A stretch of 37,679 bases of DNA from a virus (Duplodnaviria; Caudoviricetes), in the IMG/VR virus record IMGVR_UViG_3300032335_000058, positions 1-37,679 of that record; one strand, written 5' to 3'. Shown here in pieces: positions 124 through 37,272 of the stretch. How positions within the stretch are numbered: position 1 is the first letter of the stretch; each line of letters opens with the position of its first letter. The position numbers were made by a program, and so were the translations under genes. The notes beneath the pieces were generated by a model. It did no database searches. It saw only the letters and a program-made list of their open reading frames with translations, and was not told the origin of the DNA.

Positions 124-2070
124 GTTTACCCGCACATACTTGCCGCCGTTAGTAGCAAATGCTGGCAGCAGCGCAGCCCTGGCCGCAGCCGCTGTCGTAG
201 CGCTTGTACCGCCCTGGGCAATCGATAGCGCCGTGGTCAGACCAGACAGAGAAGTGATGTCGCTGTTGGCCCCGGCATTGGCCTTAGTATTTAATGCGCC
301 AATGTTGTTAGCAACCGTAGTAATGTCAGCAGAAATCGGCGCAAGTGTCGAGACACCAGCAGACACCCCGGCCACCGTGGTCACATTGCTAGAAATACCG
401 GCAACAGTAGTGACATTGCTGCTAATACCTGCAACGGTAGTCACATTGCTAGATATGCCAGCCACCGTAGTGACATTGGCTGCAATGCCTGAAACCGTTG
501 ACACGCTGGACGAAATGCCAGACACCGTACTAACGGCTGACGATATGCCTGCCACCGTGGTGACATTGGCGCTGATCCCAGCAACCGTGTTTACATTGGC
601 AATGTTCGTGCCAACAGTATTGATGTTGGCAATGTTATTGGCGCAAACCTCAATCTCAGATACGGCCTCATTGAGATCATTGGCCGTGGTGATAATCTGA
701 GCAATGTCGGTAGCGCAAGTATTGACGCTGGCAATGTTCGTTGCCACCGTGTTGACACTTGCTATGCTTCCAGCAACCGCCCCAATATCTGCTCCATCCG
801 CTGCAACTGTCGTGACATTTGCTGCAATTCCAGCGACTGTCGTGACATTTCCAGATATGCCAGCAACTGTGGTGACATTGGCTGAGATTCCTGCAACGGT
901 AGTGACATTGCCTGAAATACCTGCAACTGTTGTGACATTAGCCGCGACCCCAGCAACCGTGCTGACATCTGCAATGTCTCCAGCAACGGCTGATACATCG
1001 GCAATATCGGCAGCAACTGTGTTGACATCTGCAATATCTCCCGCAACTGTGTTGACATTGGCAATCGATCCACCAACAGAATTGACATTGGCAATCGATC
1101 CACCAACCGCATTGACATTGGCAATCGATCCGGCCACCGTCCCAATGGTATTAGTGCCACCAAGATTAGACGCTACTGTGTTGACATTGGCAATGTTAGT
1201 TCCAACAGAATTGACATTGGCAATGTTCGTTCCAACGGTTTCAATTTCAGAAACCGGCTCGTTCAGATCATTGGCTACCGTGGTGATGTTGGCCAAGTTA
1301 TTGTAAACCGTGACAATGTACCCATCTGGCGCAGCGCCAGAAGCCCCAGACGCAACATCGGCCACCGATCCAAAATCATAGGCCCAGCCAGTACCGGCCA
1401 GATCATCGCCAATTGTGCCAATCTCCGTGGCCTTGGCGGCCAATGTAGAGATGTCGCTGCCAATGGCATTAAGATCCTCAATGTCCTGCTTAATGTCATC
1501 CAGATCCTCAATGGCCTGGGTAATCCCTGATAAGGCAACTACCTGTTCGGCAATGTCCGCCACTTCCTGAACGCCAACCAGGCTATTGCTGACATCTAAT
1601 TCGCCATTGGCATCAAATCCTAAAACTTTGCCAGCCCGCACACTTGATGCCGGTAGCACGGCGCTTAGTGATGTTGAATCGGTTTCGGCAAACTTGATTG
1701 ATCGATTAACAGCGGATTGCTGCTGCTGCACAATCTGTGTCAACTTATCCAGCGCTTCCTCATGGGTTTCTGCTGGGAACGGGTCATTGCCCTGATAGTC
1801 AACTTCCTGGGTAATCGGGACATTACGGACAATCACCAGGCTTGTGCCTGCTGCTGGGGCTGTCAACATAGTCACCGTGCCACCAGCAGGGTTTCCGGCC
1901 CCGGTAACCGTGTAGTCTGTGGTTATGGTTTTGACTGTCTCAGTACCATTGGCCGCCCTGGATATGACCTTTAAATGGTCATTGTCCAAAAAGTAATAAG
2001 TGACCGAAAAGGCCGTAGTCGAGCCATTGCCCGAATACGAAACCCTGGATGTTGAACTTGATACGGTCAT
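40..2070 (-). CDS. Tail fibre protein (T7 gp17-like N-terminal anchor, long 10-aa repeat shaft)
   Basis: N-terminus MTVSS..YSGNGSTTAFSVTYYF...FPAETHEEALDKLTQIVQQ is typical of podovirus fibre anchors. Tandem (I/G)SxNVTTVAG decad repeats, C-terminal AVALAIALG, and position right after the largest internal virion protein. Confidence 0.85.
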   Translation of the reverse strand: MTVSSSTSRVSYSGNGSTTAFSVTYYFLDNDHLKVISRAANGTETVKTITTDYTVTGAGNPAGGTVTMLTAPAAGTSLVIVRNVPITQEVDYQGNDPFPAETHEEALDKLTQIVQQQQSAVNRSIKFAETDSTSLSAVLPASSVRAGKVLGFDANGELDVSNSLVGVQEVADIAEQVVALSGITQAIEDLDDIKQDIEDLNAIGSDISTLAAKATEIGTIGDDLAGTGWAYDFGSVADVASGASGAAPDGYIVTVYNNLANITTVANDLNEPVSEIETVGTNIANVNSVGTNIANVNTVASNLGGTNTIGTVAGSIANVNAVGGSIANVNSVGGSIANVNTVAGDIADVNTVAADIADVSAVAGDIADVSTVAGVAANVTTVAGISGNVTTVAGISANVTTVAGISGNVTTVAGIAANVTTVAADGADIGAVAGSIASVNTVATNIASVNTCATDIAQIITTANDLNEAVSEIEVCANNIANINTVGTNIANVNTVAGISANVTTVAGISSAVSTVSGISSSVSTVSGIAANVTTVAGISSNVTTVAGISSNVTTVAGISSNVTTVAGVSAGVSTLAPISADITTVANNIGALNTKANAGANSDITSLSGLTTALSIAQGGTSATTAAAARAALLPAFATNGGKYVRVNSGATDVEYVTLDADPAGTAVALAIALG
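300..1310 (-). repeat. Degenerate 30-bp (10-aa) tandem coding repeat in the fibre shaft
   Basis: Recurrent (G/T)TGACATT(G/T) units every 30 nt encode ANVTTVAGIS/ANVNTVAGSI. A longer NDLNE(P/A)VSEIE unit occurs twice. Confidence 0.9.
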
Positions 2071-5000
2071 CTTATTACCTCACTAGGTTTAATCAGGAAT
2101 GTCTGGTCATTCTCCCTTTCAATCCTACGCTCCATTCTACGCAAGTACCCAGGATTCAGCCACTCCTGTACCCGGTAAAGGATTAAATAGTCCAGCGCCA
2201 TCCTGGTATAAAACAGGTTCATAAACGGCGTATTTGCAATGACCAGGCGGAATGTCTGCGCGGCTGCGTCATCCCCTGATTTAAGCCTTCCCCATAGATC
2301 AGCCAGGTCATCCATAGTGCCAAATGTTGGGCCTGCTACGGTGGCTAAAAACCCGCCTCCGTGGCGATTCTTCATCTCGCCAAACAAGAAGTCACCGTAA
2401 ATACCAAACGCCCCGCCCTGCAACATTGAGGCTGCCCAGGTAGATGGTGACAGCGGATCGCGTGGTGACCGGCCCTTAATCAGATCCTTGATAGCCATTG
2501 CGCCATACCCAAACAAACTCATCCACAGGATCATGTTAGCCATGCCCAACATGTCACCTTTTCCGTTTTTCAGGTAATCGCCCAGGTTGTCATAACCACG
2601 GCCATAAATTTCCCGGCCAATTGTGCGCTGCAAAATGGCTACTGGGAAAGATTTAAACTGAGCAAAGAACCTAGCAATCTCACCCCAGACCGTGCCAGGA
2701 TTTGTGCCGCGCAACAAAAATGCTCTTGTTCTAGCATCCGGCTCAATTACAGCATGCTCTCCACGGTCAATAAACATTGAGCGCATTGCGCCCTGGATGT
2801 CTTGAATCAGGTTAGCAACAGACGCATCATTGACCTGGCGGCCAACGCCCACAATGTAATTTTCAAGCGCTTCACGGGGTAAAGATGCAATGCCCTCCGG
2901 GGTCATGTATGTCCGGCCATCGGCTTCTTTGGTAGATGCCATGCGGATTAGATCCCATTTGCCTTCATCAATGTTGTAAAGGCTAAACAAATTTTGCAGG
3001 TCTGGGCGCAGGTCAATAAACCTAGTGTTTCTATGGAATGCGAGGTTAGCCGAAAGACTGAGCGCTGCCGACTTCCGCAAAGTTTCCGTCCACCAGGTCA
3101 AACCATTCCATTTAAAGAACTGGTTTTGCAACTTGGTCATTGTGCCGCCCATGTTCTGCTCACCATCAAACCGGCGCAGCACGCCATTACGCATGCTGTC
3201 AAAGAACACGCCCAGGCTGTTCATAATCTCTTGCTGCTCCTGGCTGCCACGGCCTTGCAGCAGGCCATTGATAGCATCGGCCATACCGGAAAACAGGGTG
3301 CGTCCCTGGAACCGCTGCTCTGCTGCGTATACCGGAATGTCGGTTATTGAGGAAATTACAGCGCCACCCAACTTAGACATTGACTGCCAGGTACGAACAC
3401 CGGCAGAAATCCTGGCGGCCATTTGGTTGGCAGGTATGTTGGCCGTGCCATCCACATGCGACATCAGATCCATGATTGCTTTGCGGCCTTCGTGCAATTT
3501 GATCCTGGCCTCTGGATCGCCGCGCAGATTGTTTTCCATCTCATCCAGCATGCGGCCAATGGCGGCCTCTGGATTTGTGCCAAAAATTTTCATCAGGCCA
3601 GCAGACCTGGCAGACCGCTCTAGCCCACCCAGCACAGCATCGGCAAACCTGGCAGATCCAAACTTGTCGTTATAGTCATACCAGGCATCACCGTCCCTAA
3701 AATACAGCGTCCTAGACTGCGAGGCTTTGCGGGCCAATGACAGACCCTGACCACGAAATGCGGCCATTGTGTCCTCATCAGGATCAAACTTCATATGCTG
3801 GCCGGACGCAAAATTGCTATACATCTCGCGCAGGCCAGCCTCGATGTCGGTCACGCCACGGCTGATAAAGGTCTTATCAATGTCAATTCTGGGCAGCACA
3901 AAATCGCGCCACTCGTTAAATGATGCATTGCGTACCCGGAACGGATCATGCGTCTGGCGGACAATGTATCCCTTTAAATCACGAATCCATGCGCCAAATC
4001 GATTCTGGGTATTGCGGGCATCATTTTGATACTTGTTAATAATCTCAGCCATCTGCACGGCTTCGCGTGGCATCCGGCTCATGTCGGCATTAGGATCAGC
4101 CATCATGTAAAGCGCCCTGGCTGTATCGCGGGCCATTGCCTCAGAGGTAAACAACTTCCACAGACCGGCACGCTCCATGTCGGCAATGATGCCGCCCATC
4201 CATTGGCCTAAGAATTGATTGATTTCAGCCTGGGCAGATGCCCGTGCGCCACGGCGCTTCATCTCAGACCCGGCAATCAGGGCTTTAAAGCCCTCAACTT
4301 CCATGCCCTTAAACTCGCCTTGCACAAACGACAGAGCCTTCATTCTGGCAGCCAGGTTAAGCGCTGCATTACGCTTTTCAATTACCGCCGCCATCATTAG
4401 GTTATTAGCCAATTCATTGGCTGCCTGCATAGCGTCAGATTGCAGGCTGGATGCCATGTCCTGGGCCATTGAGGATTCGCGGATCTTCCGCAGCCGGTTA
4501 CGCACAGATGCATTCTGAGACCGCAATTGTGCCAGCAGGTCATCAATTTCTTGCTTAGTTAGCGTGCCGCCAGATGCCGATTGCATGGCCGACTGTGCCG
4601 CTGCGTCATCACTAATACGCTCTGCTGCCGCCCGGATTGCTTTACTGTAAACCTCGGCTTTAGCAATGGCATCATCAAACAATCGCATTTCTGCTGCCAT
4701 GTCATTAGATTGATCAGCGCCACGGGAATACTGGAATTGAAACTCCATATCCAGCCCCATGCGCTCACGCCTTGCCACAGAATGCAATGACGATACGGCC
4801 AGCGCCCGGATGTCTGCCTCAGTCAATTCTATGTTGTCGCGCACCAATTGGAATGTACGGTACGCCCAGGCACGCACGGCTGCAATAATCTGCTTGACCA
4901 GGCTTAACTCTGGCGCATTCTCGATCAGGTAGGCTAATTGCTCAGATGCCACATGCTGGCTAGGCGTATCCTTTGGAACATTGCTGGCAGCCTCTACAAA

Positions 5001-8000
5001 CTTGGCATCACCACGGGCAATGCCTTCGGCCACCTGGCCCAGCACATCCTTGTAAATTGCTGCGCCAAGTAATTGCTCCATGCCCACATGCTCACCCACT
5101 TCGTGCAAAATTAAGCCACGAACTTCTGATGGGCTGACATTTTCAGCAACAATGTAAACCGTGCCATCTGGCCCGGTCATGCCGCGCACATCTTGTGGGT
5201 GCGGGCCATCAGGTAGGTTTTCTACCTTATTGACAATCTTAATCCGTCCTGCATCAAGCAGGGTTTCTGTTGATCTGCCAAATGCTTGGCGTAAAGATTC
5301 TACTAACTGAACATCCGCAGTTGGCCCTGCCTCATCTGTGGCTCTAGAGTATCTGGCTCCGATACCATCGGCAGATTCTTTGCCCTGAATAGCCGCTTGA
5401 ACAAGGCGCTCTCCCTCGCCCGTGCCGCCTTGTCTGTCTGCCCATCGCTTGGCTGCGTCAACGAGGCGCTCTTGATTGACTTCTGGTCTTGTGTACCACG
5501 GGGCATTGCCGCTCTCCGATACTTTAAAGTCTCCAGGGACTACCCTGTTTTTGCCCTTTTTGGAAATCTCCGTAAGGAACTCTCTAAATGCCGGGACAGA
5601 AAACTGAAACTCTTGTCCGTTAGGTGTATTGTAAACAAAATACGGCGTTCCGTCAGCATCCCTGCCATACATTGCGCCATATTCATAAGCGCCATATTCG
5701 CCTTGTTTGGCTGTCACTCTAGCAATAGCCAGGTCATCACCTTTGGCATCCGGCAAAATTGCGCCTAGCGTTCCGTGGCTGGCTTCTTGCTGGCTATCAG
5801 CAACCCAAGATTCCCAATGAAATCGGCCAATGCTTGCATCCTTTGGCCTGCCAAGTGCTTTATATATGCCAGCAATCTTTAACTCTAACGCCCGTTCTAT
5901 TGCTTCATAAATAAGCAAGCCACGAACACCCATTGTTAAATCAGCAAGTGATGTCCCAGCAACAGTCTTTTTATCTTCTTTGCGGCCATCATATAAATTT
6001 CTATTATTAAACCTTCCGTCATCCCACAACTGTCTTACTTGAACCCGATCTAAAACCATCACATCATCAAAGCCAACAACTAACAAAGAAAACGAGACAA
6101 CTTTATTGTCAATTCCAACACCTTCGCCAAATTTTTGAAATTCACGGCGAATCATTTTTCCGGTAGAGTTTGGATCTTCTAGCATGCTGTGTAAGCGCTG
6201 CAAATAAGATATGCCTGATTCGTCTTTTGCGCTCATCTTTAGCAAAAACGATTTGCCAAAAGCATTTAAATTATGGGTTGATCCAGCGCCTGGGAATCCC
6301 ATGCCTGCTGGCGCAACTGTTTTTACCCAGGCTTCGTATGCTGGAAAATCAGCAGTAGTAAATTGACCAGCCGCTGCCTTACGAATCCATAAATCAGCGC
6401 CTTCAAATGCATCAATAAACAATGATTCTTGAACATACGGGCTAACACCGCGAGACAAGAATGACCACAAAAATAACTTGCCTGTTGTAACAACATCTAA
6501 TTCTTTTGCAAGATACGCCTTACGAAATTCTGCGGCATTTTCAAAACCGTGCGATGCGTCAGCAATTTGACCTTTTGTCAAACGAGATAGTTTGTTTGCA
6601 GCATTGTCACTATTTATGTCACGCAAAAATGCATAAGGAGGAACGGGAACTTCTTCGGATGCAAATGCATAGGCAACCATTTTTGCCCATTCTTCTGGGC
6701 TGTCTCCAGCATTTGGAAACTTTTTCAAAATTGCATCAAGAGCATCAATTTGTTTGGTTGCGTTTTTGTTATTTGTCCCGGTTAAAATTAGTGGCTTTTC
6801 AGGCAATACCATCCGGCCCAATTTAGCCATAACCCGCAATGCAGGTTCAAAACCCAATTTATTTCCAGCGCTTATGCCAACGCCAGGCTTATCAGGGCCA
6901 CCCTGCGTCCTGGAATACTTGTACGCATCATTGCCCCGCTTAACCACCTCATCGGCCTGGAATAGCGCGTCATCCAGCGACTGTTGGGCATCGGTCACGC
7001 CTTTGGATCTTAAATCCACAGCAACCGCAGCGTCAGCGTCAGCAGAAATTAGGGCATCAATACTTTGCTGCTCATTGGCAGCAGCAAGCGCAGAATCCTT
7101 AGTAGTCGTGCCAATGGATTGATCTGCCCCAATAATTGGATCAACATTGACTTTTTGCCCTTCGGCCAATTGGGCCACAGACACACGCAACGCTGCCTCA
7201 CGGGTTTCAGCGGATACCCGGTTAATCTTGGCCGAGGCAGACGGATCGTTCATCATTCCGTCCATTGCCTGGTCAATCAGATCCATCTTGGTAGGCGCTG
7301 CAACGCCACCAAAAATATCACCCTGGGTAGGATCACCAGCGCGATCTAGGGCTGCATAGTATTCGTTAATAAAGCCAGAAATGGCACGGGCAGACCGGAT
7401 GTTGTCATCCAGGAATCTCAGAATCTCTAACTGCTCTGGTGTCATGTCACGGCCAAGAATGTCACCCTGGCTCATGTAGTCATCAAAATCCATGCCCTTG
7501 GAGCGCAGGTCAGTCAACTTAGCAACCGCTGCCTGCAGATCATCAGAAATGTCGGCATCAAATAACCGGCCTTCTGCAATACGCGCACGGGCATCAGCAA
7601 TCACACCGGCAGACCGGATTAGCGCCGTGGACAAATTGGCCGATGCATCATCAGTAGATTCAACCAGGCGCTTTAGGATTGGGCTGTCACCATAAGCACG
7701 GTACAGAATTGCATTCCGCAGCCGGGTAAGACCTTCTTTAGACAAATACCCTTCGGATGTCAGCAGCGCCGACTGTTGATTGACCGGAAATTGACCAACC
7801 CATTGCTTGATTGCGCCTCGATTGCCAGCCGTATTTAAATCTCCATTTTCAGGAATATCAAACCCACGAAAATCTTTTAAGCGCTCCGAATCCACTCCGG
7901 CCTGCTCAAGCGCCGACATGCGGGCAGCGCCCCCTTCGTTAGAAATAATGGCCGCCTGCTTGATGTCTACATCCTCGCGCAGCACCCGCACCAGCATGGG

Positions 8001-9341
8001 TTTTTTCATGCCATCAATGGCCGTGGCATCAACGCCAAATTCGTCCAACTGCGCCAGCAATCTGGATCGATAATTGCCCACCTTGCCAATGTCATACGAT
8101 GTCGAAATGCCCATCACACGGCCATTGCCGCCAATGACCAGACCATCCTTAGATAATGTCGGTGCGCCATAGTCCATGACGGGTGACCATTGCAATTGGT
8201 CATAATCAGGGTTATTACTAATCTCGCGGATCTGGGCGCTTGATGCCTGGCGTGTACGGTCTCGCCATTGATTGTCAGCCTTAGTCATTGCAGCCTCGAC
8301 ATCCACCAGGTCAACAACGGCCCATTGCGCGGCCACCTTGGTCTGACCAATAGTGACTTGGGTATCTTCGCCATAAATAGTGCCACGGGGTAGCGCTACA
8401 TCCTGGCCTTGGCGATCAATTGATCCGGTATCACGGATCAGCCCGGCAGCACGCAGCACCGATTGCGGATACTTCTGGGCAATCTCAATAACCTGCTCTG
8501 GACTATTGATGCCCTGGGCAACCAATGCGTCCACCTCATAAACCTGCTTTATCTGGTCAGTAGACAGCCCTAACAGCCGATTAAACGGATCAGGCTTGTT
8601 GCGGTATGCCCGATAAAAATCAGCCCCGCTGCCGCCCAATACATGCAGCCCACCGCCAAATACAGCACCAAATCCAATGTTAAGCGCTGAATCCAACATG
8701 CCGTAGTCGGCCTGCTCAAACTTGGCAGACCCATAGATGATTGGCTCAACCAGCGCAGCGCCAGCCAAACCTTCGGCAGCGCCAACGGCCAGGCGCGGCA
8801 GCACCCGTGAACCGGTAGTTCCAGCCCTAGCCAGCAATTGAGCATAGCGGGCCTGGCCCACAATCGGCACAAATGCCGTACCCACATTGATTGGATCTAG
8901 GATAGACGCAGCAAACGCAGTACCAAACTTGGCCGTGCCAGCCACAAACCCACTAGGCCCGCGCTGGATAATGTCATTGCGGCGCATCTCGTCTTGCTTG
9001 CGCTCAATCAAAATATCTAGCGCTTTGACATTGATGCCATCATCCGGCACTTCTAACTTGACACCGGATTCTTTAATCTTTTGCCTAGCAGTCAAAGCAT
9101 CCAATCTGTCTGGCGCTGCCACCGGCTGGACACCGGCCATTGCCTCTTCTGGGCTAATCTCTTCTGGCCCGCGCCCCGCTTCCATTGCCTGGCTTAACTC
9201 ACCAGCCCTAACAACTGACAGCGTGGGTGACCGGATTAGCGCTTCGCGTGCGGTCTGGTAAAGGGTTTCGCCTAGACCAGCCGAGTATTCGTCCAGGGTA
9301 GTGTTGCGTCTTGTCGGTAATCCATCGGTATAAATTGGCAT
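2067..9341 (-). CDS. Large internal virion (DNA ejection) protein with inserted polyvalent-protein domains: ddrB-like ParB, HhH-glycosylase-like, zincin metallopeptidase
   Basis: 2424 aa at the T7 gp16-equivalent position. Motifs QWRDRTRQAS..GAP..DGLVIGGNGR..PMLVR (ddrB-ParB), GIDNKVVSF..GFDDVMVLDR (HhH-GPD-like) and LILHEVGEH..SEQLA (zincin). The C-terminal half is helical and hydrophobic like podovirus ejection proteins. Confidence 0.8.
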   Translation of the reverse strand: MPIYTDGLPTRRNTTLDEYSAGLGETLYQTAREALIRSPTLSVVRAGELSQAMEAGRGPEEISPEEAMAGVQPVAAPDRLDALTARQKIKESGVKLEVPDDGINVKALDILIERKQDEMRRNDIIQRGPSGFVAGTAKFGTAFAASILDPINVGTAFVPIVGQARYAQLLARAGTTGSRVLPRLAVGAAEGLAGAALVEPIIYGSAKFEQADYGMLDSALNIGFGAVFGGGLHVLGGSGADFYRAYRNKPDPFNRLLGLSTDQIKQVYEVDALVAQGINSPEQVIEIAQKYPQSVLRAAGLIRDTGSIDRQGQDVALPRGTIYGEDTQVTIGQTKVAAQWAVVDLVDVEAAMTKADNQWRDRTRQASSAQIREISNNPDYDQLQWSPVMDYGAPTLSKDGLVIGGNGRVMGISTSYDIGKVGNYRSRLLAQLDEFGVDATAIDGMKKPMLVRVLREDVDIKQAAIISNEGGAARMSALEQAGVDSERLKDFRGFDIPENGDLNTAGNRGAIKQWVGQFPVNQQSALLTSEGYLSKEGLTRLRNAILYRAYGDSPILKRLVESTDDASANLSTALIRSAGVIADARARIAEGRLFDADISDDLQAAVAKLTDLRSKGMDFDDYMSQGDILGRDMTPEQLEILRFLDDNIRSARAISGFINEYYAALDRAGDPTQGDIFGGVAAPTKMDLIDQAMDGMMNDPSASAKINRVSAETREAALRVSVAQLAEGQKVNVDPIIGADQSIGTTTKDSALAAANEQQSIDALISADADAAVAVDLRSKGVTDAQQSLDDALFQADEVVKRGNDAYKYSRTQGGPDKPGVGISAGNKLGFEPALRVMAKLGRMVLPEKPLILTGTNNKNATKQIDALDAILKKFPNAGDSPEEWAKMVAYAFASEEVPVPPYAFLRDINSDNAANKLSRLTKGQIADASHGFENAAEFRKAYLAKELDVVTTGKLFLWSFLSRGVSPYVQESLFIDAFEGADLWIRKAAAGQFTTADFPAYEAWVKTVAPAGMGFPGAGSTHNLNAFGKSFLLKMSAKDESGISYLQRLHSMLEDPNSTGKMIRREFQKFGEGVGIDNKVVSFSLLVVGFDDVMVLDRVQVRQLWDDGRFNNRNLYDGRKEDKKTVAGTSLADLTMGVRGLLIYEAIERALELKIAGIYKALGRPKDASIGRFHWESWVADSQQEASHGTLGAILPDAKGDDLAIARVTAKQGEYGAYEYGAMYGRDADGTPYFVYNTPNGQEFQFSVPAFREFLTEISKKGKNRVVPGDFKVSESGNAPWYTRPEVNQERLVDAAKRWADRQGGTGEGERLVQAAIQGKESADGIGARYSRATDEAGPTADVQLVESLRQAFGRSTETLLDAGRIKIVNKVENLPDGPHPQDVRGMTGPDGTVYIVAENVSPSEVRGLILHEVGEHVGMEQLLGAAIYKDVLGQVAEGIARGDAKFVEAASNVPKDTPSQHVASEQLAYLIENAPELSLVKQIIAAVRAWAYRTFQLVRDNIELTEADIRALAVSSLHSVARRERMGLDMEFQFQYSRGADQSNDMAAEMRLFDDAIAKAEVYSKAIRAAAERISDDAAAQSAMQSASGGTLTKQEIDDLLAQLRSQNASVRNRLRKIRESSMAQDMASSLQSDAMQAANELANNLMMAAVIEKRNAALNLAARMKALSFVQGEFKGMEVEGFKALIAGSEMKRRGARASAQAEINQFLGQWMGGIIADMERAGLWKLFTSEAMARDTARALYMMADPNADMSRMPREAVQMAEIINKYQNDARNTQNRFGAWIRDLKGYIVRQTHDPFRVRNASFNEWRDFVLPRIDIDKTFISRGVTDIEAGLREMYSNFASGQHMKFDPDEDTMAAFRGQGLSLARKASQSRTLYFRDGDAWYDYNDKFGSARFADAVLGGLERSARSAGLMKIFGTNPEAAIGRMLDEMENNLRGDPEARIKLHEGRKAIMDLMSHVDGTANIPANQMAARISAGVRTWQSMSKLGGAVISSITDIPVYAAEQRFQGRTLFSGMADAINGLLQGRGSQEQQEIMNSLGVFFDSMRNGVLRRFDGEQNMGGTMTKLQNQFFKWNGLTWWTETLRKSAALSLSANLAFHRNTRFIDLRPDLQNLFSLYNIDEGKWDLIRMASTKEADGRTYMTPEGIASLPREALENYIVGVGRQVNDASVANLIQDIQGAMRSMFIDRGEHAVIEPDARTRAFLLRGTNPGTVWGEIARFFAQFKSFPVAILQRTIGREIYGRGYDNLGDYLKNGKGDMLGMANMILWMSLFGYGAMAIKDLIKGRSPRDPLSPSTWAASMLQGGAFGIYGDFLFGEMKNRHGGGFLATVAGPTFGTMDDLADLWGRLKSGDDAAAQTFRLVIANTPFMNLFYTRMALDYLILYRVQEWLNPGYLRRMERRIERENDQTFLIKPSEVIR

Positions 9342-11900: not shown

Positions 11901-12488
11901 TTACGCCAGATTAGATGATTGATACGAAAACCCGCCTTGCATCGGCGTGCCACTTGGGGTGGTCATTGTTTTAAGACCTGTAGAACCCGTTCCAGCCATT
12001 GTGTAAGACTTGTACGCCATTGCAGATCCAGACAAGATGTCGGCCCCGGCGCTGATATACGATGCCCGCACGGCATTCTTGCCTGCAGCCCGATTGACCT
12101 TGGCTGAGTATTGATCCATTTCGGCTGATGCCAATAATCCCCTGGCTTTTAAATCGCCTTCGTAGCGAATTGTCAACGAATCCAATTCCGCCATTGTTTC
12201 TGATTGTTCGGCAATATCGGCCATCGATCCGCCCAGGCCAGCGCCAGATTGAGCAATGGCTGCCCGCTGCTTGCCAAGTATTGTCCTGGCCTGGCGGCGC
12301 TGCTGTTCTTCCCGTATGTTGGTCTGCTGCCGGGTGATGTCTGCTTCCTGGCGCTTGATGCCTGCATTGAAATCTTCAGCATTGGCCCTGGCATCGGCCA
12401 TTGCCTTGTCAGCCTGGCCTTGCTGCAGCGTGCCAATAGCCTTCATGGCCGTAGCGGCCACAAGCATTATGGTTACTGGATCAGCCAT
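11901..12488 (-). CDS. Internal virion protein (T7 gp14-like)
   Basis: MADPVT start, hydrophobic N-terminal helix, Ala/Gln-rich coiled coil, GKQRAAIAQSG motif; follows the GNAT-like gene. Confidence 0.72.
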   Translation of the reverse strand: MADPVTIMLVAATAMKAIGTLQQGQADKAMADARANAEDFNAGIKRQEADITRQQTNIREEQQRRQARTILGKQRAAIAQSGAGLGGSMADIAEQSETMAELDSLTIRYEGDLKARGLLASAEMDQYSAKVNRAAGKNAVRASYISAGADILSGSAMAYKSYTMAGTGSTGLKTMTTPSGTPMQGGFSYQSSNLA

Positions 12489-32305: not shown

Positions 32306-33217
32306 TTACTCGTAAAGAATGTTGACATAACCGGCATCAAAAGTATTAGTGCCAACCAATGTTGTGATTCTAATTTTAGTCAAAGTATCTGCAATCTGTT
32401 TATGTCCGGCAGCGCTAATTGTGCCATTAGGAAACGCAAACATTCCATTAGCCACCCAACGATCATCATCCATCAATGTCAACACCATTGATCCGCCAAG
32501 TGTATAAGACGGATTGCCGTTAGATATGACAAACCCTGTAGTCGATGTGCTGCTTGACATCGATGACGCGCCCAGGCTGCTGGTACTAGCCACATATGCG
32601 CTGGTCTCAAACCCCGTGGCCGTACCCAATTGGACAATGTAATTGTTGCTGCCATTGGTACTTACGCCAAAAAACATTACGGTCAATCGTCTGACCCAAG
32701 ATGGCAGGTCTGTAAAATCAATGTATGTACCGCTGACCGCAGACACAATTGATCCCGTAGTCATGGGATTTGCTAACTTGGCCGGTGTTACAGAAGAATT
32801 GTCAATCGTCCAGGTAGCGCCAGTAGATGACACAACAATGTCACCCTTGTCACCATCGGTCACGCCGACAATGGTGCGGTACTCAATATCTGTTGCGCCA
32901 GAGTTTACAAACAGCGCCTTGTTTCCATTAGTGGCAAATGCTGGCAAAAGATTGGTACGCGCACCGGCAGCCGTACTTGCACCCGTGCCACCGTCTGCCA
33001 CGGCCAGGTCTGTAATTCCAGTAATAGCGCCGCTGCTGATCGTGACATTGGTAAGTGTCGATCCATTCTCTTTGGCAAGGGGAAATCCACCGGCAGTCGA
33101 TCCATCATGGACAACGGCTGTGTCTTTTGTAGTGTCAACAGTCACTTCGCCAAGAGCGCCAGCAAATGACGAATGCTGAACAGTCGTTCCTCGTCTTAAT
33201 TGAAGTGCAATTGCCAT
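32306..33217 (-). CDS. Fibre/receptor-binding protein with major tropism determinant N-terminal (Mtd_N)-like domain
   Basis: LQLRRGTT.QHSSF.GALGEVTVDTTK.T.VVHDGSTAGGFPLA N-terminus, LAVADGGTGAST shaft, beta-sandwich C-terminus ending NILYE. Confidence 0.78.
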   Translation of the reverse strand: MAIALQLRRGTTVQHSSFAGALGEVTVDTTKDTAVVHDGSTAGGFPLAKENGSTLTNVTISSGAITGITDLAVADGGTGASTAAGARTNLLPAFATNGNKALFVNSGATDIEYRTIVGVTDGDKGDIVVSSTGATWTIDNSSVTPAKLANPMTTGSIVSAVSGTYIDFTDLPSWVRRLTVMFFGVSTNGSNNYIVQLGTATGFETSAYVASTSSLGASSMSSSTSTTGFVISNGNPSYTLGGSMVLTLMDDDRWVANGMFAFPNGTISAAGHKQIADTLTKIRITTLVGTNTFDAGYVNILYE

Positions 33218-33225
33218 AATGTGCC

Positions 33226-34152
33226 TTATGCTGTGTATGTACCGCTGCTAGTAAATGTATGAATGGTGTAGCCGCCAGATGAGGTAACCGTTCCTCCGGT
33301 TCCTCGTTGTGCGCCAAGGTAACGGATAATTACAATTCCCGAACCCCCATTTGCTCCAGTACCACCAGATACTCGTCCACCACCGCCGCCACTACCACTA
33401 TTAGCAGACCCAACAGTTCCATTGTAAGAACCAAAAAAACCTCCGTTGCCACCGCCCGCTTGCCCCAAACCACCAACCTGTCCTGAACTTTCATAGCCGC
33501 CTGCACCCCCACCACCACCACCTGCACGGGCAGTTGCAGTTCCGTTAATAGAGGACGAAACGCCTATACCACCGTTAGCACCATCATCATAGCCCCGTCC
33601 CGGAGGGTAGTTTTGCCCAACACCACCCGCACCACCTCCACCGCTTGCTGCGTTTCCGTCATTTTGTGTGTCGTTTGCTGTGATATTTCCACCAGCATAT
33701 CCTTGATTAGCAGTACCAGCACCACCAGATTTAGGCGCACTTGTTGTATAAGATGAACCTCCTCCAGAACCGCCGCTCGATCCAGTTCCACCAGCATTAG
33801 CACCGGCTCCACCACCGATAGATGTAATAGAACCAAAAACAGAATTATTACCGTTGCCACCATTAGCAGTACCGCCTGCACCAACCGTGACTGTATAAGA
33901 ACTTGCTATTGTAAGCGGTAACGCAGACTCAGCAGATCCACCACCACCTGATGATTCGCCAGCGACAGAAGATCTATAACCGCCTGCACCTCCACCTCCA
34001 CCATAAGTATTTCCACCACCACCGCCACCAGCAATAACAAGATATTCAACAGAATAATTCTGTATAGGCCAATTGCTTCCTTTTAAAGCATTGCGGACAT
34101 CATTAAGTTTCCAAATGCCATTGGCATCGGATGTACTTGGAAATTGTGCCAT
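33226..34152 (-). CDS. Glycine-rich domain fibre-associated protein (paralogue 3)
   Basis: VEYLVIAGGGGGG...GGSGIVIIRY...GYTIHTFTSSGTYTA. Confidence 0.8.
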   Translation of the reverse strand: MAQFPSTSDANGIWKLNDVRNALKGSNWPIQNYSVEYLVIAGGGGGGNTYGGGGGAGGYRSSVAGESSGGGGSAESALPLTIASSYTVTVGAGGTANGGNGNNSVFGSITSIGGGAGANAGGTGSSGGSGGGSSYTTSAPKSGGAGTANQGYAGGNITANDTQNDGNAASGGGGAGGVGQNYPPGRGYDDGANGGIGVSSSINGTATARAGGGGGGAGGYESSGQVGGLGQAGGGNGGFFGSYNGTVGSANSGSGGGGGRVSGGTGANGGSGIVIIRYLGAQRGTGGTVTSSGGYTIHTFTSSGTYTA

Positions 34153-34511
34153 TACGAAATCTCCTCGTAAGACACAATGATTTCAAGATCACCTGAAGCA
34201 GAGGCCAGCGCTGTAATTTTGTCACCTTCCTCAAGGTAAATCGCTTTGCTCATCACATCTAGTGTTGCATCGGCTGGTACTGTGATCGTGTGTGCAATCT
34301 CGTATGTTGTTGTATTGTCAGCGTTGTAGAACCCAACAGTCACATCGGCGTTGTTTGCGCCATCCACATTGGCTACCAAAATTGCATTGACTTTGAACAC
34401 CTTACCGCTGCCTGCAGAATTGGTCACAATGTCTGCGCTTGAAGTAGTTAAAGCAGCGCCAACGGTTCTGCCTGTAATAGTTGCCACATTGACGATATTA
34501 GGTGCTGCCAT
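34152..34511 (-). CDS. Small beta-rich fibre adaptor-like protein (MAAPNIVNV type)
   Basis: ILVANVDG...IYLEEGDKI.A.AS...LEIIVSYEEIS; paralogous pattern to 37272..37592. Confidence 0.75.
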   Translation of the reverse strand: MAAPNIVNVATITGRTVGAALTTSSADIVTNSAGSGKVFKVNAILVANVDGANNADVTVGFYNADNTTTYEIAHTITVPADATLDVMSKAIYLEEGDKITALASASGDLEIIVSYEEIS

Positions 34512-34514
34512 GTT

Positions 34515-34820
34515 TTATCCTCCGAAAACCACGGCCATAGCGATGGCCTTGCCTGTTGATGCTGTATTAGCCAGGGTCACCGGCTGATATGACAGCGCTT
34601 GAAATTCGTCATTAAGTGCAGCGGCAGATGTCAGCACCACAGTCAATCCATTTGATGCCGTGTAGTCTGATGGTGTCAACAATACCCCGTTGAGAAACAC
34701 ATCGACATAGCCAACCACATACCCGCCAGTAATGTTAAATGTTGTCTGGCCGCTAGTGGCTGTGACATTAGTCACCGTGCGGATCGTATTGCCAAATGGG
34801 GGAACGCCAAGATAACTCAT
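34515..34820 (-). CDS. Short fibre-linker protein
   Basis: MSYLG.PP start, ATSGQTTF..Y..G.VDVFLNGV.L...DYTA.NG domain, C-terminal GKAIAMAVVFGG. Confidence 0.75.
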   Translation of the reverse strand: MSYLGVPPFGNTIRTVTNVTATSGQTTFNITGGYVVGYVDVFLNGVLLTPSDYTASNGLTVVLTSAAALNDEFQALSYQPVTLANTASTGKAIAMAVVFGG

Positions 34821-35821
34821 GCTGTGAATGTCCCGCTTGATGTAAATGTATGGTATGTATAACCACCGCTACTGGTTACTGTGCCACCGGTTCCTCGTTG
34901 AGAGCCAGAGTAACGGATAATGACAACACCTGAACCACCAGCGCCGCCTGCACCTTGATTGCTTGAGCCATTTAAATGCCCACCTCCACCACCACCGCCG
35001 CCTCTGTTTGCTGTTCCAGAAGTGGCGGGATTACCACTAGATGCGCCACCGCCTCCACCACCAGAACCACCAGCACCAACAGTTCCAGTACCACGAACCC
35101 CACCTCCACCACCACCGGCGTATGTAGTACCTAAAGATTTCCAATTAGTGCCAGCACCTCCGGCTCCAGCAGTAGCACCACTTGCAGACCCACCGACAGC
35201 AGAGGCCCCACCACCACCGCCAGCACCCGCATCACTTAAAGCGGCATTAGCACCATTACCGCCGGAGTTACCTTGACCAGAAGTACCAGCGTACCCGGTT
35301 GCATAAGTATTATTGCTATGAGTTCCTCCACCACCTGAGCCTCCTGATGCTCCAGCACCAACTTCAGATGCCCCAGCACCGCCAGCAGTTGCTGTGTTAG
35401 ATGCAAAACCAGAATTTGATCCACTTGTGGCTACAGTTCCAATTCCACTACCGCCACGATTTACACCACCACTTCCACCCGACCCGCCAGCGCCAACTGT
35501 TACTGTATATGCTGTGAGCGTAGTAACATTTTGTGTGCTGTCTAAAAGACCACCCGCACCACCGCCACCTCCAGCAGAACCGCCACCACCACCTCCAGCA
35601 ACTATAAGATATTCAACAGAATACTGTACTGTTGCAACTATAGATGCCCAGTTAGTTCCATCATAAACTTCATACTTTGAGTCTGTGGTGTTATATCTAA
35701 CCATGCCAGTACTGGCCGTGGCCGGACGCTCTGCGGTAGTACCCGCAGGCAGATCAAATGCACCAGTACCAGCGCTGCTTGTATCTTGCGCGGTTCGGCC
35801 TAGGTTTCGCGCTTTACCCAT
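34817..35821 (-). CDS. Glycine-rich domain fibre-associated protein (paralogue 2)
   Basis: MGKARNL start, DLPAGTTAERP..GMVRYNT unit, Gly-rich domain ending YTYHTFTSSGTFTA. Confidence 0.8.
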   Translation of the reverse strand: MGKARNLGRTAQDTSSAGTGAFDLPAGTTAERPATASTGMVRYNTTDSKYEVYDGTNWASIVATVQYSVEYLIVAGGGGGGSAGGGGGAGGLLDSTQNVTTLTAYTVTVGAGGSGGSGGVNRGGSGIGTVATSGSNSGFASNTATAGGAGASEVGAGASGGSGGGGTHSNNTYATGYAGTSGQGNSGGNGANAALSDAGAGGGGGASAVGGSASGATAGAGGAGTNWKSLGTTYAGGGGGGVRGTGTVGAGGSGGGGGGASSGNPATSGTANRGGGGGGGGHLNGSSNQGAGGAGGSGVVIIRYSGSQRGTGGTVTSSGGYTYHTFTSSGTFTA

Positions 35822-36201
35822 TATGGCTGCTCTACTTGTACCCAGGATGTCGTTGCCTCATCCCAGCGATACATATTTGCATCTTCAGGATAAGGTACTG
35901 GCGATTCCCACAAGCACGATGTCTCGTTAAGATTCCAAGACGCATACGGCTTTGGAGGAATAAACGCATCACGCTGTGCGTCATAAGAAAAGCCAATGCC
36001 AGCATAATTCTTACGCAGCGCTTTGGTCTGATCGGCAGACGGTTCGTTAGTCTCTGGATTGTAGTGAACCCCACCGCGAGTGTTATAGGATGTCTGAATC
36101 CACGCACCAGGTGAAGTGTCTACAAATGTCTGAAAAAATTCTGGTTCGGCAACAATGACCTGTTCCACGATTCCATTGTTTACTTTTGCAAAATGTGCCA
36201 T
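35821..36201 (-). CDS. MAHFA-type protein accompanying Gly-rich fibre genes
   Basis: MAHFAK..WIQTSYN..LRKNYAGIG..YD..RDAFIPPKPY.SW.L.E..C.W..PVPYP; GGAGA RBS. Confidence 0.8.
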   Translation of the reverse strand: MAHFAKVNNGIVEQVIVAEPEFFQTFVDTSPGAWIQTSYNTRGGVHYNPETNEPSADQTKALRKNYAGIGFSYDAQRDAFIPPKPYASWNLNETSCLWESPVPYPEDANMYRWDEATTSWVQVEQP

Positions 36202-36210
36202 GTATATCTC

Positions 36211-37272
36211 CTATGCTGTATAAGTTCCAGATGATGTAAAGGTATGGTAGGTGTATCCACCAGATTGTGTAACTGTCCCGCCAGATCCTTGTTGTGCTCC
36301 AGCATAGCGAATGATTACGATGCCGGAACCACCGGAACCACCATTGGCTGGCACACTTCCTGTCCAACTGCCTGCACCTCCACCTCCACCTGTATTTGCA
36401 GTTCCTGAAATGCCATCTCTGCCGCCACTAATACCATATCCACCATTTCCACCACCGCCTGATCCACCAACGCCGCCAACAGTTCCACTTCCGCTGAGTC
36501 CGTAATTACTACCGCCACCGCCGCCAGCGTAAAAAGTTCCTAGTGATTGCCAATTAAGACCAACGCCACCATTACCCGGAATAGTAGATGTTGCATTATT
36601 ACCCGTTGCCCCAGCACCGCCACCACCTCCACCAATGTATGGAGAGCCACCATAGGCTCGTCCACCAGCGTTACCTTGCCCTGATGTTCCTGATCCACCA
36701 GCACCTGTTGTTGTTGTAGTTCCACCGCCACCACCACCGCCAGAGCCACCAGATCGTCCAGTTTCATAGGTGGCGTTACCAGTCCAATATGTACCACCAC
36801 CGCCACCACCAACGGATGTTATAGAATTAAAAACAGAGTTAGAACCATCTTTACCATAAGAAGAATTTGACTCTCTTGGCGCAGTTCCACCAGCACCGCC
36901 TGCGCCAATTGTAACGGTGTAGGAATTAGTGGCAGCAAATGTGATTGATGCTGTTCTATATCCACCAGCGCCACCGCCACCGCCAAGGTCTGCGCCACCA
37001 CCGCCACCACCAGCAACAACAAGATAATCAGCGGAATAATTTTGCGCTGTAGTTGTTACATCACGCCATTGTGTTTCAACATACATTTCATATTTGTCAT
37101 TATCTGTGTTGTATCTCACCATGCCATTAGCCGGTGACCCTGGCCTTTCGGCAGTAGTACCCGCTGGCAAATCAAAATACCCCGTGCTACTGTTAGCCTG
37201 GTCAGATACCTCAGTAGGCGTTACCTCAACGCCTGCAATGTTCGGTGCTGGGGGCGATCCAATGTAAGACAT
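36211..37272 (-). CDS. Glycine-rich domain fibre-associated protein (paralogue 1)
   Basis: MSYIG.PP start, FDLPAGTTAERP..GMVRYNT, Gly-rich domain ending YTYHTFTSSGTYTA. Confidence 0.8.
   Translation of the reverse strand: MSYIGSPPAPNIAGVEVTPTEVSDQANSSTGYFDLPAGTTAERPGSPANGMVRYNTDNDKYEMYVETQWRDVTTTAQNYSADYLVVAGGGGGGADLGGGGGAGGYRTASITFAATNSYTVTIGAGGAGGTAPRESNSSYGKDGSNSVFNSITSVGGGGGGTYWTGNATYETGRSGGSGGGGGGGTTTTTGAGGSGTSGQGNAGGRAYGGSPYIGGGGGGAGATGNNATSTIPGNGGVGLNWQSLGTFYAGGGGGSNYGLSGSGTVGGVGGSGGGGNGGYGISGGRDGISGTANTGGGGGAGSWTGSVPANGGSGGSGIVIIRYAGAQQGSGGTVTQSGGYTYHTFTSSGTYTA

What the first reader, a model, noticed from the sequence alone, without database searches (positions are those of the whole stretch)
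5352..6908. Helix-hairpin-helix DNA glycosylase-like module (Ogg2/Nth-type K-x17-D) inside a virion protein
Seen at ~6010-6130: GEGVGIDNKVVSFSLLVVGFDDVMVLDRVQVRQLW. Established: bifunctional HhH-GPD glycosylases use a Lys and an Asp 18 residues apart (E. coli Nth K120/D138), and Ogg2-type enzymes read roughly G-I-G-x-K-x-A-S-x-F-L-x-x-x-G-x-x-D-V-A-I-I-D-R-H. The phage motif matches this pattern with both catalytic residues retained, in a much larger (~520 aa) module. Inference: an injected glycosylase/AP lyase that repairs damaged incoming DNA, removes a host-added DNA mark, or attacks modified host DNA.
Basis: partly seen in the sequence, partly recalled or inferred. Interest (0 to 1): 0.85.

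Follow-up and report, generated by a model that had tools for sequence, protein, structure and literature searches.

The report
Swappable DNA-glycosylase cassette in phage virions
A large virion-cluster protein of an aquatic bacterial virus carries a swappable cassette predicted to fold like an Ogg2 DNA-repair enzyme, with both catalytic residues kept but the 8-oxoguanine sensor rebuilt; it is likely injected with the genome and likely cuts out some other abnormal base, a kind of phage cargo not found in the papers searched.

Summary
Observation confirmed and extended. Window 5352-6908 (minus strand) is aa 812-1330 of a 2424-aa ejection-type polyvalent protein in a complete 37.7-kb phage genome. 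K1080 is kept in 349 of 349 and D1098 in 348 of 349 aligned proteins. The AlphaFold2 model (pLDDT 89.6) superposes on four Ogg2 structures (Z 14.5-15.7, rmsd 2.9-3.5 A, nearly full length), though sequence similarity alone is not significant. It is not an Ogg2: the C-terminal Lys that senses 8-oxoG maps to an internal invariant His1189, and the residues that clamp it and the base-reading Asp are replaced. The family has 488 clusters at 50% identity, rides in unrelated carrier proteins, and has no Pfam, PHROG or NCBIfam match. The cassette is bounded by Tyr-Ser-Arg linkers, and near-identical phage genomes carry a different, weakly GP88-like Cys-motif cassette in exactly that slot. Most likely an injected glycosylase/AP lyase that removes an abnormal purine from the incoming phage DNA; attack on modified foreign DNA (Dag-like) is the main rival. 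Injection, activity and substrate are untested.

The parts
2067..9341 (-). 2424-aa ejection-type polyvalent virion protein (P0001)
   Evidence: C-terminal phrog_684 'virion structural protein' E 1e-184; homologues annotated 'internal virion protein'
5352..6908 (-). Exchangeable cassette, aa 812-1330, between two Tyr-Ser-Arg linkers
5775..6635 (-). Ogg2-like HhH-GPD core, aa 903-1189 (predicted)
   Evidence: model residues 84-370 superpose on Ogg2, Z 14.5-15.7
6102..6104 (-). Lys1080, predicted Schiff-base nucleophile, start of predicted helix 260-269 of the model
   Evidence: 349 of 349
6048..6050 (-). Asp1098, predicted catalytic Asp, cap of predicted helix 280-287
   Evidence: 348 of 349
5805..5819 (-). 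His1175-x3-Trp1179, inferred counterpart of Ogg2 Asp194-x3-Trp198 (base-reading and stacking)
   Evidence: H 347 and W 346 of 349, rest gaps; register inferred
5775..5777 (-). His1189, at the place of the Ogg2 C-terminal Lys207 but inside the chain
   Evidence: last aligned pair 370/207 in four Ogg2 superpositions; H in 346 of 349, 3 gaps
6636..6854 (-). Conserved N-terminal extension, aa 830-902
5412..5774 (-). Conserved C-terminal subdomain, aa 1190-1310, no clear fold match
   Evidence: best Z 3.7
6909..6917 (-). Tyr-Ser-Arg linker 1 (aa 809-811); exact swap point
5343..5351 (-). Tyr-Ser-Arg linker 2 (aa 1331-1333)
4722..4730 (-). Tyr-Ser-Arg linker 3 (aa 1538-1540), after the peptidase domain
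5088..5105 (-). HEXXH-type motif (aa 1413-1418) of a likely zincin metallopeptidase (MPTase) domain; no library hit, read from the motif
   Evidence: PMC5512222 passages
7980..8342 (-). DdrB-like ParB domain, aa 334-454
   Evidence: PF18763 E 7e-26
2076..4589 (-). C-terminal chassis of the ejection protein, aa 1585-2422
   Evidence: phrog_684; 126 phage records
9355..11898 (-). Upstream virion gene with glycosyl hydrolase 108 domain
11901..12488 (-). Upstream T7 gp14-like internal virion protein
   Evidence: PF24072 E 1e-8

Best explanation
Residues 812-1330 are an exchangeable cassette, predicted to fold like Ogg2 with an invariant Lys-Asp pair, that is likely ejected into the host inside the virion protein, likely freed at its Tyr-Ser-Arg linkers by the neighbouring metallopeptidase, and likely excises an abnormal purine from the incoming phage DNA so that host repair can restore it. 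Shown: sequence, conservation, linkers, swap with another cassette, virion gene context. Predicted: the fold and the placement of Lys1080, Asp1098, Trp1179 and His1189. Inferred: ejection, proteolytic release, Schiff-base glycosylase/AP-lyase chemistry, and the target. The base is probably not read the Ogg2 way; candidates are a host-added adduct (such as ADP-ribosylated guanine) or a lesion gained while the particle waited in the water, 8-oxoG being only one of them (about 0.15 on its own). That it is an active, virion-delivered Lys/Asp N-glycosylase of some substrate: about 0.7.
For: Fold: Z 15.6, rmsd 3.0 A, 207 of 209 residues to T. maritima Ogg2, next hit 10.4, and 22 top rows all HhH-fold enzymes; four Ogg2 chains Z 14.5-15.7; top 7 Foldseek rows Ogg2. 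Dyad K 349/349, D 348/349 at 33-89% identity to the query; an Asp-Lys dyad marks bifunctional HhH enzymes (PMC13490550 passages). A second invariant shell (W959, S963, E972, N1024, H1175, W1179, H1189) points to a selected pocket. Delivery: ORF sits between gp14-like/lysozyme genes and the tail fibre; 7 of 8 annotated loci of 33 lie clearly among virion genes; polyvalent proteins are proposed to be delivered with DNA and cut by their MPTase (PMC5512222 passages). [YF][SA]R flanks the module on both sides in 15 of 15 carriers of this chassis. Own DNA looks canonical: no base-modification gene among 45 window ORFs scanned and 0 of 26 carrier contigs (7 at least 90% complete) match QueC, PurZ-type synthetase, thymidylate synthase or N6/N4 methylase, so the target cannot be a normal base. 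Packaging an enzyme makes most sense if it must act before the genome can be expressed (inference).
Against: No substrate evidence at all. Hosts normally have their own oxidative-repair enzymes (recalled), which weakens selection for a packaged one. Nicking one's own incoming genome is risky. Swapping within a population and hopping among 13 carrier types look like arms-race dynamics, which fit an offensive role equally. The hairpin is non-canonical, and no conserved Arg-Phe wedge is seen before predicted helix 200-217 (by eye), so duplex DNA binding is not assured. The linker motif is chassis-specific: across all carriers [YF]S[RLIK] lies upstream in only 26 of 314 and downstream in 29 of 220 (background 243 of 6383 windows). 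Residue mapping to Ogg2 has one residue of slack and rests on end-points, not a printed alignment.
Confidence: 0.42

Rival explanations
1. Offensive, Dag-like effector: the injected enzyme excises a modified base from DNA that is not the phage's own (a rival phage's 7-deazaguanine-type genome, or a host chromosomal mark) and fragments it.
For: Dag1 is an HhH enzyme with Lys118, Asp132 and Asp184-x3-Trp188 that cleaves 7-deazaguanine DNA (10.1101/2025.10.29.685425, Results read), so this layout can be retargeted. Carriers lack their own modification genes. Fellow cargo is conflict-type: ART-PolyVal in 7 of 25 carriers scanned, GNAT, an anti-CRISPR match. Allelic swapping.
Against: The Asp essential in Dag1 is His here. 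Host marks would also be written on phage DNA grown in that host (inference). No integrase was found, so a packaged enzyme could meet a rival only in a brief co-infection. 0 of 35 members match PADLOC (the library predates Dags).
Confidence: 0.25
2. N-glycosidase of a free nucleotide, RNA or single-stranded substrate (for instance a defence signal or a modified nucleotide), in the manner of the queuine-salvage enzyme.
For: DUF2419/QNG1 aligns over 252 residues including the N-terminal extension, Z 9.6. Altered hairpin and no evident wedge. Both extensions are family-wide and could close the cleft.
Against: Ogg2 scores 6 Z units higher at lower rmsd. R1065, G1076, R1099 and the HhH-GPD spacing are invariant. 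AGOG binds DNA with a non-canonical hairpin (PMC3397491 passage).
Confidence: 0.15
3. Not a hydrolase: it forms a lasting Lys adduct that shields abasic sites made by host glycosylases, or transfers a group onto DNA as the HhH-fold amino acid:DNA transferases do.
For: The Glu after the catalytic Lys, implicated in Schiff-base hydrolysis in AfOgg1 and invariant in 14 of 14 Ogg2, is Val in 348 of 349. HhH-fold transferases exist in phages (PMC8989533 passages).
Against: No conserved Cys (at most 4.7% in any column), which clade-2 transferases need; no 5-hmdU pathway gene found. Human OGG1 also has Val after its Lys (recalled). Invariant E972 could supply the acid.
Confidence: 0.12
4. A structural or inactive domain, or one removed before packaging.
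For: P1 DdrB is processed before packaging. No virion proteomics exists for these uncultured phages.
Against: Invariant catalytic-type residues; phages with the same chassis lack it (126 records hold the chassis, 0 the module) or hold another cassette, so it is not structural.
Confidence: 0.06

Closest known systems
OGG2 8-oxoguanine glycosylases (MjOgg 3FHF/3KNT, TmOgg 3N0U, SsOgg 3FHG)
   Same: Predicted fold over the whole Ogg2 length, Lys/Asp at 18 residues, likely stacking Trp, invariant Glu in the following helix.
   Different: 12-16% identity; about 80 residues of insertions plus two extensions; C-terminal Lys replaced by internal His; His/Arg/Asn clamp replaced by Phe/Leu/Val; Asp194 by His; fused into a virion protein.
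Dag defence glycosylases (10.1101/2025.10.29.685425)
   Same: HhH fold with Lys, Asp and stacking Trp, used in conflict rather than housekeeping, mobile.
   Different: Dags are stand-alone host genes in integrons and defence islands acting against phages; Dag1 needs Asp-x3-Trp, here His-x3-Trp. No Dag sequence was compared directly.
Phage polyvalent proteins (PMC5512222)
   Same: Large late-gene protein with DdrB-ParB and HEXXH peptidase; family members carry ART-PolyVal, LPD22/23/38, InPase, GNAT.
   Different: The paper's main text has no 'glycosylase' and one unrelated 'HhH'; short linker motifs marking swap points were not seen in the passages read.
Amino acid:DNA transferases (aGPT-Pplase/AADT, PMC8989533)
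   Same: Phage-encoded HhH-like fold acting on DNA bases.
   Different: They need Cys/Glu and a 5-hmdU kinase pathway; neither is found here.
Queuine salvage enzyme DUF2419/QNG1 (7UGK, 7U07)
   Same: Enlarged HhH-like fold, Z 8.9-9.7.
   Different: Poorer superposition (rmsd 4.8-5.0 A); cellular enzyme on a mononucleotide (recalled).

Membership tests
HhH-GPD superfamily | Two-domain helical fold with HhH motif | tested here: met
   predicted model
HhH-GPD superfamily | Catalytic Asp after the HhH and, in bifunctional members, Lys on the second helix | tested here: met
   D1098 348/349, K1080 349/349; helix positions; no 3D distance was measured
HhH-GPD superfamily | Canonical G-x-G hairpin | tested here: inconclusive
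   G1074 301/349, G1076 349/349, D1078 322/349; two registers
HhH-GPD superfamily | Base excision / Schiff-base formation | not testable with these tools
   needs biochemistry
OGG2 | Strictly conserved C-terminal Lys whose carboxylate reads N7-H of 8-oxoG (PMC3397491) | tested here: not met
   position maps to H1189; chain continues at least 46 residues in every carrier with that His; K is terminal in 14 of 14 Ogg2 controls
OGG2 | His, Arg, Asn at Lys+4, +7, +8 that hold the C-terminal carboxyl (PMC13490550) | tested here: not met
   F 347, L 344, V 315 of 349 against invariant H, R, N in 14 of 14
OGG2 | Asp194 reading the guanine edge | tested here: not met
   H1175 in 347 of 349; register inferred
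OGG2 | Trp198 stacking on the base | tested here: met
   W1179 346 of 349, 3 gaps; register inferred
OGG2 | Arg84/Phe85 at the estranged base | tested here: inconclusive
   no conserved Arg or aromatic at aa 1008-1023, mapping by eye only
OGG2 | Pfam PF22175 or NCBIfam PRK01229 over cut-off | tested here: not met
   (6 of 35 members, best E 0.025)
Dag defence glycosylases | Essential Asp-x3-Trp (Dag1) | tested here: not met
   His-x3-Trp (paper)
Dag defence glycosylases | Cleaves 7-deazaguanine DNA, restricts such phages | not testable with these tools
   needs plating and in vitro assay
AADT / aGPT-Pplase clade 2 | Conserved catalytic Cys with nearby Glu | tested here: not met
   no column above 4.7% Cys
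Phage polyvalent proteins | Large multidomain late-gene protein with DdrB-ParB, MPTase and variable effectors | tested here: met
Phage polyvalent proteins | Packaged and delivered with the genome | not testable with these tools
   gene context only

The most novel reading that the evidence does not exclude
Aquatic podophages inject a cassette-built ejection protein whose linker-bounded slot is reloaded, within a single population, with alternative base-chemistry enzymes; this one is a new glycosylase family with a His-lined pocket that strips a host-installed defence mark (or a rival's modified base), revealing an unrecognised host defence and a new DNA-modification reagent.
Probability: 0.3. 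Interest if true: 0.88.

Novelty: new variant of a known kind. Interest (0 to 1): 0.72.

Why it matters
Glycosylases were recently shown to be host weapons against modified phage DNA; a large, unnamed family on the phage side, placed to act at the moment of entry, would be the counterpart. Its rebuilt pocket predicts a different base from Ogg2, and finding that base would expose either a lesion that limits phage survival or a host defence mark. The exact Tyr-Ser-Arg swap point, with two alleles in one population, makes both the cassette-exchange and the peptidase-release ideas for polyvalent proteins directly testable, and gives clean construct boundaries.

Tried and rejected
No family match for the module in Pfam, PHROGs, NCBIfam or PADLOC. 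tblastn of the module against 50,697 phage records: no match. Profile-profile comparison with 14 Ogg2 sequences gave only E 0.094-0.13 and no usable full-length alignment. ESM Atlas: feature scores 0.90-0.95 to unnamed and partly Ogg-HhH clusters, a lead only. C-terminal subdomain folded alone: pLDDT 64.7, best Z 3.7, no assignment. Apparent second HhH copies in 11 carriers checked were noise. A first conservation count dropped 31 of 348 hits by a length filter (13 of them full-length); it was redone on all 349. Idea that carriers have modified genomes: 0 of 26 for four marker families; C5 methylases and unknown pathways were not tested. RNA runs held only small shares, so expression was not assessed. 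Earlier findings of the scan: none. The alternative cassette has no PHROG or PDB sequence match and was not folded. No complex prediction was run: DNA cannot be the partner.

Full report
Setting. The window is a complete 37,679-base phage genome with terminal repeats. Its virion genes are podovirus-like (portal, nozzle, gp14-like protein, tail fibre) and its replication genes lambdoid; no integrase appeared among 45 ORFs scanned. Of 16 runs holding at least half the module's words, leaving out the possible source, 8 are labelled freshwater, 1 aquatic, 6 fungus metagenome and 1 soil. The finding lies in ORF 2067-9341 (minus, 2424 aa), which has a DdrB-ParB domain, an HEXXH-type motif at aa 1413 and a C-terminal region shared with annotated internal virion proteins: a polyvalent protein in the sense of PMC5512222 (passages read; supplements not seen).

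Observation. The motif and the 18-residue K1080/D1098 spacing are present. By itself this is weak (5 such pairs in the protein; best PDB sequence hit MjOgg at E 0.67). Homologue searches gave 408 long and 146 short relatives and 488 clusters at 50% identity. Over all 349 proteins held, K1080 is invariant, the only one of 33 lysines to be so, and D1098 is kept in 348.

Fold. AlphaFold2 on 35 sequences gave pLDDT 89.6, pTM 0.88. Foldseek's top 7 rows are Ogg2, with E only 0.005-0.05 but probability 1.0. The independent wide search ranks T. maritima Ogg2 first at Z 15.6, rmsd 3.0 A, 207 of 209 residues, then OGG1, EndoIII, MagIII and DUF2419 at about Z 10; four Ogg2 chains give Z 14.5-15.7. The core is aa 903-1189; the family-wide extensions have no assigned fold.

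Not an Ogg2. OGG2 enzymes read 8-oxoG with the carboxylate of a strictly conserved C-terminal Lys, with Asp194 and Trp198 in the pocket (PMC3397491 passages); His, Arg and Asn hold that carboxyl (PMC13490550 passages). All are invariant in 14 Ogg2 controls (14 of the 18 full-length loci). In all four superpositions Lys207 pairs with model residue 370, His1189, after which the chain continues. The clamp positions are Phe, Leu, Val, and Asp194-x3-Trp198 reads His1175-x3-Trp1179. This mapping is inferred from end-points, helix limits and spacing, with one residue of slack. A backbone carbonyl at 1189 could still accept N7-H, as Gly42 does in OGG1, so 8-oxoG is not excluded.

A cassette. Among 143 carriers of at least 2000 aa only 14 share this protein's termini; C-termini fall into 13 unrelated groups (5 with several members; singletons may be fragments). 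126 of 50,697 phage records hold the chassis and none the module. Tyr-Ser-Arg occurs exactly three times in the protein, bounding the module and the peptidase region; [YF][SA]R flanks the module in 15 of 15 carriers of this chassis but seldom in others. Contigs from four studies show a joint 5244-6909 in 2 of 4 runs, loose ends at 6909 in the other 2, and lower depth over the module in X2 and X3 (depth is no share of cells). Four of four loci fetched with the upstream flank (three distinct; flanks 91-98% identical in DNA) carry, from exactly nt 6909, a different 464-aa cassette ending in Tyr-Ala-Arg, with a Cys-x6-Cys-x3-Cys motif and a below-cut-off GP88 match (E 0.003). The tools withhold near-identical records, so 4 of 4 is no frequency. 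The core's GC3 is 0.28-0.34 against about 0.5 elsewhere in the ORF, in keeping with recent gain.

Mechanism. Fold, dyad and pocket argue for Lys/Asp N-glycosylase chemistry; gene context argues for ejection (7 of 8 annotated loci clearly among virion genes). No modification genes were found in the window or in 26 carrier contigs, so the substrate should be a base absent from normal DNA. I put rescue of the phage's own incoming DNA first (0.42), because packaging pays when action must precede expression, and marks on the host chromosome would tend to be shared by phage DNA. DarT-type guanine ADP-ribosylation is one candidate mark (PMC11543638, PMC11125620: listing and abstract start only). The Dag precedent (10.1101/2025.10.29.685425: abstract, Results parts 1-2 of 3 and section 8 read, supplements closed) keeps an offensive role close (0.25). 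A non-DNA substrate (0.15) and a shield or transferase role (0.12; PMC8989533 passages) remain.

Novelty. No library names the family. Seven paper searches aimed at a prior description listed none, judged from titles and abstract starts; the library lacks most subscription papers, and Iyer's supplementary domain lists were not seen. It works like an HhH bifunctional glycosylase, fails OGG2 membership, and belongs to the polyvalent-protein kind: a new variant of known kinds. Interest 0.72.

Noticed in passing
L054:6934-8391 (also L055, L056, L057; relatives L060, L061): Alternative cassette in the same slot: about 464 aa, Cys-x6-Cys-x3-Cys motif plus further Cys pairs, weak GP88 match; 71-74% relatives sit in unrelated large proteins. 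Possibly a radical-SAM-like virion cargo (motif reading recalled); none of 349 HhH carriers has it.
   Followed up: partly
window 4722-4730, 5343-5351, 6909-6917: Tyr-Ser-Arg linkers; relatives with extra domains have extra copies, and other chassis seem to use other motifs such as Phe-x-Gln. Candidate peptidase sites and recombination points.
   Followed up: partly
BFVD hits (A0A6J5LC27, A0A6J7WE55, A0A6J5M5X4, A0A516LH12): Weaker structural matches (probability 0.87-1.0, E 0.01-0.04) in other uncharacterised phage proteins of 426-859 aa: perhaps further, more distant HhH cargo families; also stand-alone phage proteins of about 200 aa such as G8EYE9.
   Followed up: no
P0106 residues 1430-1465: A carrier protein has an anti-CRISPR AcrF31 match (E 9e-8, over cut-off) just after the module.
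   Followed up: no
L030:12409-13032: Gene directly after a carrier, labelled 'DNA endonuclease V' by PHROGs but matching 2OG-Fe(II) oxygenase weakly in Pfam.
   Followed up: partly
window 5518-5677 and 2718-2755: A 158-base joint inside the module's C-terminal subdomain in 2 of 4 runs, and loose ends at 2718/2755 in 3 of 4 runs; may come from relatives.
   Followed up: no
window 32306-37272: An Mtd_N gene and three related glycine-rich (PF21722, phrog_2295) genes in tandem, probably a receptor-binding array.
   Followed up: no
P0333: The single homologue with Gly in place of the catalytic Asp.
   Followed up: no
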